Sequence record: PQ287642.1
Source of the DNA: Pseudomonas phage HHBS36_1
DNA length: 64,000 bases
Reading direction: 5' to 3' (one strand)
Shown here: positions 7,034-8,568 of the stretch, one piece after another
Position numbering within the stretch: the first letter of the stretch is position 1
How the letters are laid out: each line of letters starts with the position of its first letter
Notes under the pieces: model-generated
The model's input: the letters and a program-made list of their open reading frames with translations, nothing else
Databases searched by the model: none
What the model was told of the DNA's origin: nothing
Made by a program: the position numbers and the translations under genes

Positions 7034-8568
7034 TTAGTGCATGGCTATCCGTCTGAGTACCATTGAAAGAGTTTTACCGGCGAAATGCTCACTTTTATTC
7101 CGAGCATATCTCACGTGGTGCGGTATGTTTTCACACACTAGGTAGGTCAACCTAGGTACCACATCTTGGAAGTCTTTCAGTTTACGGAGACGACCCAGAA
7201 TTTGAATGTTATCTTTCTTGGAATCGGTAGCTTGTAACAATACTACCTCACGAAGATTAGGGATGTCTACACCTGTACCAGATGACTTAATAGTGGACAC
7301 CGTAATGTCGTTCTTAAGTAACTGTTCATAACTGCAACCTGAGACATGTCCGTTAACCACAAGGTCAGGGAACTTAGTCTTCAGATATTTAACCAGTTTT
7401 TCAATAAAGGCGACCGTTGCACAAAGGAGGAGTAGTTTCTGACCAGGTAACCGATCTTTCACATACACGCCATCAGCAATACGACCGACCATCCTGAAAT
7501 AGTCATCCATCCGTTTAGGATCTTTCATCATTACCGTTTCGTAACGCGCATGGTTATACGTATTCTTAAACGGTGTAAGATAATCCTTCGGTTTGATCTT
7601 TGGTTCAGTGTAGAGTAGCCCCATGCAGTTGATGTAGACATCGTAGTTGGGCAGGCGACACATGGTCTCTGCTGGCAACATCTTGTCAATCATCTTCGTC
7701 ACGTAGGCGTTCCCTGTGTAGGGAGTAGCCGACAAATAGATCTGCTTATTAATGTTAGAGTAAATATCGATACGGAAGGTTAGTCCTGGATCTTCTTGAA
7801 TCTCGTCGTTAATTTGCAGTCCTGCTTGTATTGCTTCGTGGAACCGGGGTGGAGGTACATTGTATCCGAGCTCATGGAGTCGGTTACCATACTTCTCAAA
7901 GTTATCTAGATATGCCCGGTAGGTAGTAGAAGAGATTACAATAACGTCAATCCCTTCAAGATCGTTTTCGACGCCGCGATCTATTAGTTTTTGGAGTTCT
8001 GCGGAACCCGAGATGGTAATGTATCTCTGGGCAATGTCCTTGTAAGTGTTCTGAAGAGCCTCAATCCAAATACCAAAATACTTGGGAGGAACCATCACAA
8101 CACATCTTACCCCCATCGAAGCCAAGGACGCTAGGCTCGTGAGGGTTTTCCCTTTCCCGTTTGCAAGTCTACCCGTGCAGAATGTAACCAATCACGCAAA
8201 ATATCTTCACGGATGATTTCCTGATAATCCCGGAGTACGTATTTCTCGTACATTTCGTAAACAGCAATTGCTGCTTTAGGGACAGGGATATCCTCAATCT
8301 CGACTCGTTCTCTTGGGATACCTTTGTTCTCCAGATAACCGATCAGGTCTTCTAGTGAATTTCGGTGGATATAAGTCTCTGATAGATCTTCGAAACAACC
8401 ATAGTACTTTTTCTTGAGTTCCATGATGATTCGATTACCAGGGATCTTCTTAGGTTCTTTCAAAGAAAGCCCTTCAAGAAACCCCTGCATCTTAGCGAAC
8501 GTTTCCCGAGTATACCCAGATAGTCGGACACCATGCGTATAGCGCTCAGCCTTGAGTATCGGTAGCAT
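7034..8568 (-). CDS. SF2 (DEAD/DExH-like) helicase encoded in two overlapping frames (8131..8568 and 7034..8191)
   Basis: Q-motif LRDYQEI lies in the upstream frame. Walker A GKGKT, DEIQ (motif II), SAT (III), SSGTGVDIP (V) and QILGRLRK (VI) lie in the downstream frame. The frames meet at mRNA ACG GGA AAG GGA AAA CC, which contains the slippery heptamer G_GGA_AAG. Confidence 0.65.

What the first reader, a model, noticed from the sequence alone, without database searches (positions are those of the whole stretch)
8131..8191. SF2 helicase split across two frames at a canonical -1 slippery heptamer (G GGA AAG)
The Q-motif (LRDYQEI) sits in ORF 8131..8568, while Walker A and all downstream motifs sit in ORF 7034..8191. 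The two frames overlap exactly at mRNA ACG-GGA-AAG-GGA-AAA-CCC, where G_GGA_AAG is a textbook X_XXY_YYZ site. A -1 slip would yield ...DLQTGKGKTLTSL, with QTGKGKT resembling the DEAD-box motif I AQTGSGKT. This is either a programmed frameshift in a replication helicase or a 1-nt homopolymer indel.
Basis: seen in the sequence. Interest (0 to 1): 0.6.

Follow-up and report, generated by a model that had tools for sequence, protein, structure and literature searches.

The report
Recurrent -1 frameshift site in phage helicase
A conserved helicase gene of a giant Pseudomonas phage is split into two reading frames inside its ATP-binding motif, at a sequence that very probably makes ribosomes slip back one base; the same arrangement, usually with an RNA hairpin next to it, is seen in four scattered phage lineages.

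Summary
On the minus strand, ORF1 (8568..8131) and ORF2 (open from 8191 to 7034) overlap at ACG GGA AAG GGA AAA CCC. A -1 slip on G_GGA_AAG (8158..8152) gives ...VDLQTGKGKTLTSL..., identical to single-frame orthologues.

It is not a sequencing error. Five isolates of Pawinskivirus PS119XW from five countries and two Logan assemblies carry the same 1-nt deficit. Its closest relatives (HPP-Temi, L038) are intact.

Three other scattered lineages of the same chimallivirus core helicase (phiKZ gp075 family, XPB-like fold) have the same deficit and the same in-frame G_GGA_AAG.

- The preceding Thr codon is ACG in 4/4 frameshifted lineages and 3/22 intact ones.
- A hairpin starts 5-6 nt after the heptamer. 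In three lineages it is the most stable 42-nt window of the gene (z -3 to -4.8 against synonymous recodings). Intact sisters have none.
- Downstream codons are as constrained as in intact sisters (49 syn/3 nonsyn; 44/4).
- In two lineages no start codon can reach the Walker A.

Best reading: a functional -1 ribosomal frameshift cassette that arose repeatedly. It makes the full-length helicase plus a 142-145 aa N-terminal product. Efficiency and purpose are unknown, and no protein evidence exists.

The parts
8131..8568 (-). ORF1 (0 frame). It encodes the N-terminal alpha/beta domain, the Q motif (LRDYQEI), strand beta-1 and the start of Walker A. Without a shift it terminates as a 145-aa product.
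   Evidence: Domain limits come from the AlphaFold model of the PhiPA3 orthologue: N-domain 1-93, Q helix 114-123, beta-1 130-133.
8152..8158 (-). Slippery heptamer G_GGA_AAG in the ORF1 frame, the proposed -1 shift site. G8152 would be read twice.
   Evidence: The same heptamer sits at the same codon in L032, L033/L034 and L035. It is the same heptamer as lambda G/GT (PMC3296357) and is among the three most efficient motifs in E. coli when a stimulator is present (PMC4066793).
8146..8152 (-). Second in-frame heptamer G_GGA_AAA. It occurs only in the PS119XW species. A slip here gives the same protein, but it directly abuts the hairpin, so it is probably minor.
   Evidence: absent from L032, L033 and L035.
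8109..8146 (-). Predicted stimulatory hairpin ACCCUCACGAGCC...GGCUUCGAUGGGGGU, about 15 pairs, starting 5 nt after the heptamer.
   Evidence: MFE -18.9 kcal/mol. z = -3.5 against 1000 synonymous recodings. It is the most stable of 166 windows of 42 nt in the gene. It is absent from the intact sisters HPP-Temi and L038. Hairpins lie at the same place in L032, L035 and, more weakly, L033.
8131..8133 (-). 0-frame stop TAG, 18 nt after the heptamer and inside the hairpin. It ends the unshifted product.
8192..8194 (-). TGA stop in the -1 frame. It sets the upstream limit of the window in which a -1 shift can be productive.
7034..8152 (-). -1-frame continuation: the rest of Walker A (GKT), motifs II, III and VI, the second RecA lobe and the stop. 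The full-length CDS is join(8568..8152, 8152..7034) and encodes 511 aa.
   Evidence: The protein is 96.9% identical to the HPP-Temi helicase. On the window branch this part shows 49 synonymous against 3 nonsynonymous codon changes.

Best explanation
The gene encodes the chimallivirus core SF2 helicase (phiKZ gp075 / PhiPA3 gp068 family, XPB-like fold). In the species Pawinskivirus PS119XW it lacks one nucleotide in the first Gly codon of the Walker A motif TGKGKT.

Full-length protein is made by a -1 ribosomal frameshift. With GGA in the P site and AAG in the A site, the two tRNAs re-pair on GGG and AAA of G_GGA_AAG. A hairpin that starts 5 nt downstream probably pauses the ribosome and raises the yield. 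Ribosomes that do not slip stop 6 codons later and release a 145-aa N-terminal fragment.

The same cassette is seen in four scattered lineages, most parsimoniously through four separate origins. The deletion therefore looks retained and tuned by selection rather than being a dead end.

- Shown: the sequence, its reproducibility, the recurrence, the covariation of the heptamer with the deletion, the hairpin statistics, and purifying selection downstream.
- Inferred: that ribosomes really shift here, how efficiently, and why the state is favoured.
For: 1. The deletion is real and lineage-wide. The same gap occurs in phiHQ, phiLBG22, BRkr, PS119XW and PA1C (Pakistan, France, Japan, Poland, Russia) and in Logan assemblies SRR34366531 and SRR34366524.

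2. A -1 slip restores exactly the orthologous sequence.

3. Three further lineages have the same deficit and the same in-frame G_GGA_AAG: L032; L033 and L034, which are the same sequence from two samples; and L035. In an NJ tree the four are scattered, and three have close intact sisters:
- window with HPP-Temi and L038;
- L035 with Viktualia and 201phi2-1;
- L033 with L036.

4. The Thr codon that supplies the X position of the heptamer is ACG in 4/4 frameshifted lineages and in 3/22 intact ones. Fisher's exact test, computed by hand, gives p of about 0.002.

5. There is a hairpin 5-6 nt after the heptamer.
- MFE is -18.9, -19.5, -12.6 and -18.1 kcal/mol in the frameshifted lineages, against about -9.7 on average in 18 intact orthologues.
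- z against synonymous recodings is -3.5, -4.8, -0.75 and -3.0, against a mean of +0.27 in intact orthologues. Mann-Whitney p = 0.0005.
- It is the most stable of about 166 windows in three of the four genes.
- RNAalifold finds a common stem.

6. In each frameshifted/intact pair, this 42-nt window is among the most diverged in the gene, in the top 0.2-2%. The derived changes build base pairs:
- Ser AGU to UCG and RRK to RKG in L035;
- Cys to Val in both the window and L033.

7. Codons downstream of the shift are as constrained as in intact sisters.
- Window branch 49 syn/3 nonsyn, against 37/3 and 57/2.
- L035 branch 44/4, against 44/5 and 61/6.

8. In L032 and L035 the two frames overlap by only 31 and 46 nt, and no -1-frame start codon precedes the Walker A.

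9. Published work supports the site. G_GG.A_AA.G is among the most efficient bacterial -1 motifs, and stimulatory structures start 5-8 nt downstream (PMC4066793). Lambda G/GT uses GGGAAAG at about 4% (PMC3296357).
Against: - There is no protein, ribosome-profiling or reporter evidence. Efficiency in Pseudomonas is unknown, and the host tRNA-Lys repertoire was not checked.
- Most orthologues are single-frame, so this is not an ancestral conserved recoding site.
- The L033 hairpin is not significant (z -0.75). Dinucleotide shuffles of the window hairpin give only z -1.5.
- The 42-nt window size was chosen after seeing the first hairpin, although intact orthologues and gene-wide scans serve as controls.
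- An ASO knock-down of phiKZ gp075 did not lower plaque or colony counts (PMC12571901). Loss of function may therefore be tolerated in the laboratory.
- Variation within the species is too small to test selection after the deletion: 6 variable sites, 3 synonymous and 3 nonsynonymous.
- Independence of the four origins rests on an NJ protein tree.
Confidence: 0.8

Rival explanations
1. Inactivated gene. The 1-nt deletion knocked out a helicase that the phage can do without, and both ORFs are decaying remnants.
For: An ASO knock-down of the phiKZ orthologue had no effect on plaque or colony counts (PMC12571901). Public annotations treat the two ORFs as separate hypothetical proteins. Variation within the species is 3 synonymous to 3 nonsynonymous sites.
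Against: - Downstream codons on the frameshifted branches are as constrained as in intact sisters: 49/3 and 44/4 synonymous/nonsynonymous changes.
- No second disabling mutation occurs in any of the four lineages.
- Every frame disruption I found falls on the same nucleotide and creates the same perfect heptamer.
- A hairpin was built at the correct spacing by derived substitutions.
Confidence: 0.1
2. Split helicase. ORF2 is translated on its own, by internal initiation or by reinitiation after the ORF1 stop, and the two polypeptides work together without any frameshift.
For: In the window a TTG at 8191 opens the -1 frame upstream of GKGKT. In-frame ATG and GTG codons lie further downstream.
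Against: - In L032 and L035 a -1-frame stop lies 12-18 nt before the heptamer, and no start codon precedes Walker A.
- The first start codon after the heptamer (TTG, +26 nt in all four lineages) would give a protein without a P-loop.
- The GKT-LTSLA codons nevertheless stay conserved, with only synonymous differences between lineages.
- The break falls between strand beta-1 and the P-loop, inside the first RecA lobe.
- No strong Shine-Dalgarno sequence is evident by eye before the TTG at 8191.
Confidence: 0.04
3. Transcriptional slippage. The RNA polymerase adds one nucleotide in the G/A runs, so a fraction of mRNAs is in frame.
For: It would give the same protein, and the region is made of short G and A runs.
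Against: - The runs are only 3-4 nt in all four lineages. From established knowledge, known slippage sites need roughly 7 or more identical bases.
- Slippage would not explain the requirement for G at the X position (ACG).
- It would not explain a hairpin 5-6 nt downstream.
Confidence: 0.03
4. Sequencing or assembly artefact in this genome.
For: Single-base indels in runs of G or A are a common type of error.
Against: The identical gap occurs in five separately sequenced isolates and two Logan assemblies of this species. It also occurs in three other lineages from unrelated data sets, one of which was assembled twice.
Confidence: 0.01

Closest known systems
Phage lambda G/GT tail-assembly chaperone frameshift
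   Same: It uses the identical slippery heptamer GGGAAAG with Gly-Lys in both frames, a -1 shift, and a 0-frame stop a few codons downstream. The result is a short product plus a longer fusion (PMC3296357).
   Different: Lambda's site is conserved across tailed phages and works at about 4%. From my own knowledge, not checked here, it needs no downstream structure. Here the site lies in a helicase Walker A motif, is accompanied by a hairpin, is absent from most orthologues, and arose secondarily.
E. coli dnaX (tau/gamma) and IS911/IS3 orfAB -1 frameshift cassettes
   Same: The architecture matches: an X_XXA_AAG heptamer, a spacer of 5-8 nt, then a hairpin or pseudoknot (PMC4066793). As in IS911 and IS3, the shifted product is the full enzyme and the unshifted one is an N-terminal fragment.
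   Different: No frameshift-specific upstream Shine-Dalgarno-like stimulator was found. Those sites are ancestral to their families, whereas this one appears in four scattered lineages of a gene that is normally single-frame.
Compensatory ('corrective') frameshifting on indels, e.g. the herpesvirus thymidine kinase G-run
   Same: A genomic indel in an otherwise single-frame gene is offset by ribosomal frameshifting (Atkins et al. 2016, PMC5009743).
   Different: Those cases give very low-level rescue on homopolymers. Here there is a canonical tandem-slippage heptamer with a dedicated hairpin, stable in natural lineages and apparently optimised afterwards.
XPB/Rad25 (Ssl2) SF2 translocases
   Same: The protein has two RecA lobes with motifs Q, I, II, III and VI, plus an N-terminal alpha/beta domain. 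The top Foldseek hits are TFIIH XPB/Ssl2 and archaeal XPB. There is also a weak sequence hit to archaeal XPB.
   Different: Sequence identity is only 11-15%. The Pfam ResIII and Helicase_C hits are below their gathering thresholds. The function in the phage nucleus is unknown.

Membership tests
Programmed -1 ribosomal frameshift cassette | X_XXY_YYZ slippery heptamer in the upstream (0) frame | tested here: met
   G_GGA_AAG lies at 8158..8152 in the ORF1 frame. The same heptamer is in frame in L032, L033 and L035.
Programmed -1 ribosomal frameshift cassette | The -1 frame continues, directly from the heptamer, with sequence homologous to single-frame relatives | tested here: met
   The junction QTGKGKTLTSL is identical to HPP-Temi and PhiPA3. 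Restored proteins of 509-513 aa align end to end.
Programmed -1 ribosomal frameshift cassette | Stimulatory RNA structure starting 5-8 nt downstream | tested here: met
   Hairpins start 5-6 nt after the heptamer in all four lineages. Three are significant against synonymous recodings and are the most stable window in their gene; L033 is weak.
Programmed -1 ribosomal frameshift cassette | Evolutionary conservation of the signal | tested here: inconclusive
   The signal is invariant in six genomes of the species, but they differ by only 0.2%. It recurs in four lineages yet is absent from most orthologues.
Programmed -1 ribosomal frameshift cassette | Upstream Shine-Dalgarno-like stimulator (optional in bacteria) | tested here: not met
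   None lies within 30 nt upstream in the window or L032. L033 and L035 have GGTGG, but it also occurs in an intact orthologue, L017.
Programmed -1 ribosomal frameshift cassette | Trans-frame protein demonstrated | not testable with these tools
   This needs mass spectrometry, Western blot, a reporter assay or ribosome profiling.
Pseudogene | Relaxed selection or further disabling mutations downstream of the lesion | tested here: not met
   Synonymous/nonsynonymous changes are 49/3 on the window branch and 44/4 on the L035 branch, equal to the intact sisters. No extra stops or indels occur.
Sequencing/assembly artefact | Not reproduced in independent data | tested here: not met
   The gap is reproduced in five isolates, two Logan assemblies and three other lineages.
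Transcriptional slippage site | Long homopolymer run (about 7 or more) | tested here: not met
   The longest run at the junction is A4 in the window, A5 in L033, and 3 nt in L032 and L035.
SF2 helicase, XPB/Rad25-like | Motifs Q, I (GxGKT), II (DE), III (SAT) and VI (QxxGRxxR) | tested here: met
   Invariant or nearly invariant columns are Q116, G138, G140, K141, T142, D255, E256, S280, A281, T282, Q456, G459, R460 and R462 in 67 orthologues.
SF2 helicase, XPB/Rad25-like | Curated Pfam thresholds for the helicase domains | tested here: not met
   ResIII scores 19.6 bits against a cut-off of 22.5, and Helicase_C 17.0 against 23.5. PHROG_16 'DNA helicase' gives E = 3.9e-43.
SF2 helicase, XPB/Rad25-like | Fold: N-terminal alpha/beta domain plus two RecA lobes, closest to XPB | tested here: met
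   The model has pLDDT 92. The top Foldseek hits are XPB/Ssl2 in TFIIH (E = 1.7e-14, TM 0.58), followed by archaeal XPB.

The most novel reading that the evidence does not exclude
The frameshifted state may be positively selected rather than merely tolerated.

About a third of the orthologues carry a LAGLIDADG intein inserted at GKGK|T, 12 nt downstream of the heptamer. A 1-nt deletion inside the presumed recognition site of the intein's homing endonuclease, plus the recoded hairpin arm just after the insertion site, could make the allele immune to intein invasion. The ribosomal frameshift would preserve the invariant P-loop protein sequence. On this reading, recoding is a defence against a selfish element.

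A second, compatible reading is that the cassette sets a fixed ratio between the free N-terminal (XPB DRD-like) domain and the full translocase.
Probability: 0.15. Interest if true: 0.85.

Novelty: new member of a known kind. Interest (0 to 1): 0.68.

Why it matters
- **Annotation.** In all annotated genomes of this species a core gene of nucleus-forming jumbo phages is filed as two proteins: hypothetical in most records, two 'putative RAD2/SF2 helicase' entries in PA1C. It should be one join() CDS with a -1 frameshift.
- **Biology.** I found no report of recoding in phiKZ-like phages in the library searched.
- **Evolution of recoding.** Closely related intact and frameshifted pairs show, step by step, how a frameshift cassette can be assembled. 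The steps are a neutral ACA to ACG change, loss of one base, and then substitutions that build a hairpin. Some of those substitutions are amino-acid replacements driven by RNA structure. This seems to have happened four times at one codon of a Walker A motif. It is a rare natural experiment on how programmed frameshifting originates, and it is directly testable with reporters.
- **Wider lead.** The co-location with a very common P-loop intein raises a testable link between recoding and escape from homing endonucleases.

Tried and rejected
- Exact and degenerate DNA pattern scans of IMG/VR and JGI metagenomes for the junction found nothing. The extra lineages came only from the protein collection and Logan assemblies.
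- The protein-based IMG/VR scan gave only intact or intein-bearing alleles. The two loci that looked split there (L027, L028) hold a P-loop intein, not a frameshift.
- Folding with dinucleotide shuffles made the hairpin look unremarkable: z -0.5 for 99 nt and -1.5 for 57 nt. Only synonymous-recoding controls, intact-orthologue controls and a gene-wide scan showed that it is exceptional.
- No Rfam family matched.
- The window holds no tRNA genes.
- No promoter-like or terminator-like site lies at the junction of the two ORFs.
- No frameshift-specific upstream Shine-Dalgarno-like element was found.
- L033 and L034 are identical, so they say nothing about evolution after the shift.
- Within-species polymorphism (6 sites) is too sparse for a selection test.
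- Intein excision as the source of the missing base is rejected. The deficit lies at least 12 nt upstream of the intein insertion site; I worked this out by hand from the sequences.
- The host tRNA-Lys repertoire and the phage's own tRNAs were not examined.
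Full report
**1. What is in the window**

All features below are on the minus strand.

- ORF1 runs 8568..8131 and encodes 145 aa, ending ...YVLRDYQEIIREDILRDWLHSARVDLQTGKGKPSRA*.
- The -1 frame is open from the TGA at 8194..8192 down to the stop at 7034. It reads ...LANGKGKTLTSLASLASMGVRCVVMVPPKYF... and continues through the rest of an SF2 helicase.
- The mRNA across the junction is CAA ACG GGA AAG GGA AAA CCC UCA CGA GCC UAG.
- G_GGA_AAG (8158..8152) is in the ORF1 frame. A second heptamer, G_GGA_AAA (8152..8146), follows it in frame.
- Re-reading one base gives a 511-aa protein.

**2. What genome this is, and whether the split is an error**

The region is 99.8% identical to five Pseudomonas aeruginosa jumbo phages of the species Pawinskivirus PS119XW: PS119XW, BRkr, PA1C, phiLBG22 and phiHQ. 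It is 89% identical to HPP-Temi and 78% to PhiPA3. The isolates come from Poland, Japan, Russia, France and Pakistan.

All five carry the same one-base gap. HPP-Temi (ACA GGT AAA GGA AAG ACC) and PhiPA3 (ACA GGA AAA GGG AAA ACG) have one uninterrupted 510-511-aa gene. The exact ORF1 protein is also encoded in two Logan assemblies of unrelated sequencing runs. A read or assembly error is excluded.

The public annotations list two separate proteins.

**3. The protein**

- tblastn finds the gene in 299 phage records across Pseudomonas, Erwinia, Salmonella, Vibrio and other hosts. Among the 60 best records listed, only those of the PS119XW species match in two pieces.
- It is the orthologue of phiKZ gp075, listed in the chimallivirus core genome. 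An ASO knock-down lowered ChmA levels but did not change plaque or colony counts (PMC12571901).
- It lies directly downstream of a non-virion RNA polymerase beta-subunit gene at 8625..10598 (PHROG_3015).
- Pfam ResIII and Helicase_C hits are below threshold. PHROG_16 'DNA helicase' gives E = 3.9e-43.
- An AlphaFold model of the PhiPA3 orthologue, built with 67 sequences, has pLDDT 92. It shows an N-terminal alpha/beta domain (1-93), the Q helix (114-123), strand beta-1 (130-133), the P-loop, and two RecA lobes.
- Its best structural matches are XPB/Ssl2 of TFIIH and archaeal XPB.

It is therefore not the replicative helicase. RAY and its relatives have a separate DnaB-like one (PMC10299810).

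The frame change falls between beta-1 and the P-loop helix.

**4. The same split elsewhere**

A search of the large protein collection returned C-terminal fragments of 351-360 aa and N-terminal fragments of 142-145 aa from other, divergent lineages. Their contigs show the junctions below.

| Lineage | Source | Junction | Identity of restored protein |
|---|---|---|---|
| L032 | SRR25400529 | CAA ACG GGA AAG GAA AGA CCC TAA | 78% aa to the window |
| L033 = L034 | SRR28403170/77 | CAA ACG GGA AAG GAA AAA CTC TCA CCA GTT TAG | 71% aa to the window |
| L035 | GCA_011800935.1 | CAG ACG GGA AAG GGA AGA CCC TTT CGG CCT TAG | 92% aa to 201phi2-1 |

In every case the missing base is in the same Gly codon, G_GGA_AAG is in the 0 frame, and a -1 slip restores ...DLQTGKGKTL(T/S)....

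In an NJ tree the four frameshifted lineages are scattered among intact genes. Three have close intact sisters:

- window with HPP-Temi (11.3% nt divergence) and L038 (13.7%);
- L035 with Viktualia (15.8%) and 201phi2-1 (18.9%);
- L033 with L036/L037 (16.7%).

HPP-Temi and L038 are both intact, so the shift is derived on the window branch. Four origins is the most parsimonious count. Some reversions cannot be excluded.

**5. Signs that the shift is used**

(a) *Heptamer perfection.*
- The Thr codon that supplies the first G is ACG in 4/4 frameshifted lineages. It is ACG in 3 of 22 distinct intact lineages and mostly ACA otherwise. Fisher's exact test, computed by hand, gives p of about 0.002.
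- Viktualia, the closest intact sister of L035, already has ACG GGT. This fits a path of neutral ACA to ACG first, then loss of one base.

(b) *A hairpin at the canonical distance.* I folded the 42 nt that begin 5 nt after the heptamer.
- In each frameshifted lineage they form a single hairpin: -18.9, -19.5, -12.6 and -18.1 kcal/mol. The mean of 18 intact orthologues is about -9.7.
- Against 1000 synonymous recodings using each gene's own codon usage, z is -3.5, -4.8, -0.75 and -3.0. Intact genes average +0.27. Mann-Whitney p = 0.0005.
- In a gene-wide scan this window is the most stable of about 166 in the window, L032 and L035, and 8th in L033.
- RNAalifold recovers a common stem whose 5' arm starts 5 nt after the heptamer.
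- The intact sisters have no such structure: z is +1.1, -0.8, +0.5, +1.0 and +0.5.

(c) *A local burst of substitutions that builds the stem.*
- In each frameshifted/intact pair this window is among the most diverged in the gene: 14, 13, 20, 20 and 16 differences in 42 nt, in the top 0.2-2% of windows.
- L035 changed Ser AGU to UCG and Arg-Arg-Lys to Arg-Lys-Gly. This gives the perfect arms CCCUUUCG/CGAAAGGG.
- The window and L033 each replaced Cys (UGU) by Val (GUA), which extends the stem.
- On the L035 branch, 6 of the 14 codons in the window changed synonymously, against 1 on each intact sister branch.

(d) *Purifying selection downstream.*
- The window branch, polarised with HPP-Temi and L038, shows 49 synonymous against 3 nonsynonymous codon changes after the hairpin. 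The intact branches show 37/3 and 57/2.
- The L035 branch shows 44/4, against 44/5 and 61/6.

(e) *No other route to a P-loop.*
- In L032 and L035 a -1-frame stop lies 12 and 18 nt before the heptamer, so the two frames overlap by only 31 and 46 nt.
- No start codon precedes Walker A there.
- The first start codon after the heptamer (TTG, +26 nt in all four lineages) would give an ATPase without a P-loop.

(f) *The site is known to be slippery.*
- G_GG.A_AA.G is one of the three most efficient -1 motifs in E. coli when a stimulator is present, and stimulatory structures begin 5-8 nt downstream (PMC4066793).
- Lambda G/GT uses GGGAAAG with about 4% shifting (PMC3296357).
- Compensatory frameshifting on indels is a recognised class (PMC5009743).

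**6. Mechanism proposed**

Tandem -1 slippage occurs with GGA in the P site and AAG in the A site. The tRNAs re-pair on GGG and AAA, and the hairpin at 8146..8109 promotes the slip.

- Shifted ribosomes make the 511-aa XPB-like translocase: join(8568..8152, 8152..7034).
- Unshifted ribosomes stop at 8133..8131 and release a 145-aa protein holding the N-terminal domain, the Q helix and beta-1.
- The 0-frame tails differ between lineages (GKPSRA, ERP, EKLSPV, GRPFRP), so they probably have no function of their own.

The shift itself, its efficiency and any role for the short product are inferred.

**7. Rivals**

| Rival | Main argument against |
|---|---|
| Pseudogene | Constraint downstream; every disruption I found is at one nucleotide; a hairpin was built afterwards |
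| Split two-chain helicase | No start codon before Walker A in L032 and L035 |
| Transcriptional slippage | Runs of only 3-5 nt; does not explain the ACG or the hairpin |
| Sequencing artefact | Reproduced in many independent data sets |

The knock-down result for phiKZ gp075 means that essentiality cannot be used as an argument. The case rests on the comparative signals.

**8. Why it recurs**

This is unknown. One lead: about a third of the orthologues carry a LAGLIDADG intein inserted at GKGK|T, 12 nt downstream of the heptamer. A one-base deletion in the likely homing-endonuclease target could block invasion, with the frameshift preserving the invariant P-loop. I could not test this.

**9. 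Novelty and limits**

I found no paper on frameshifting in phiKZ-like helicases in the library searched, and no Rfam family matches. The mechanism is a canonical -1 frameshift cassette, so this is a new member of a known kind. What is unusual is the repeated de novo origin inside a Walker A motif.

Limits:
- There are no protein or profiling data.
- The host tRNA-Lys set is unchecked.
- The L033 hairpin is weak.
- The 42-nt window was chosen after seeing the first hairpin, although it was controlled afterwards.
- Independence of the origins rests on an NJ tree.

Noticed in passing
L027 and L028, nt ~430-1500; proteins P0013, P0036, P0095 and about 35 others: Roughly a third of the orthologues of this helicase carry a LAGLIDADG/Hom_end intein inserted exactly at GKGK|T of Walker A and ending ...VTHN|T. 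The first intein residue is often not Cys or Ser (A, L, G, M, D or F). The insertion point is 12 nt downstream of the frameshift heptamer position.
   Followed up: partly
window 7034-8568 (-) and 8625-10598 (-): The helicase model is closest to XPB/Ssl2, the TFIIH translocase that opens promoters. The gene lies directly downstream of a non-virion RNA polymerase beta-subunit gene (PHROG_3015). This hints at a role in transcription rather than replication.
   Followed up: partly
window 7010-7029: A perfect 8-bp GC-rich hairpin (GCCCACC-TTCG-GGTGGGC, then TTTAT on the minus strand) sits right after the helicase stop codon. It is probably the terminator of this transcription unit.
   Followed up: no
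L039 (Pseudomonas phage Viktualia), nt ~500-560: The closest intact sister of the frameshifted lineage L035 already has Thr ACG before GGT AAG. That is the state from which loss of a single base would come close to a perfect heptamer.
   Followed up: yes
L003 (phage PA1C), 578-1069: PA1C annotates the N-terminal ORF with an upstream start, giving 163 aa instead of 145. Only PA1C names both pieces 'putative RAD2/SF2 helicase'; the other annotated records call them hypothetical proteins.
   Followed up: no
window 6401-6703 (-) and 6714-7016 (-): Two 100-aa ORFs just downstream of the helicase are strongly hydrophobic and look like small membrane proteins. Their function is unknown.
   Followed up: no
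L002 (PhiPA3), nt 1355-1403: The intact PhiPA3 gene also folds into a fairly stable local structure in this region (-17.1 kcal/mol, z -2.0 against synonymous recodings). It starts 8 nt further downstream and has no heptamer, so stable folds here are not exclusive to frameshifted alleles.
   Followed up: partly
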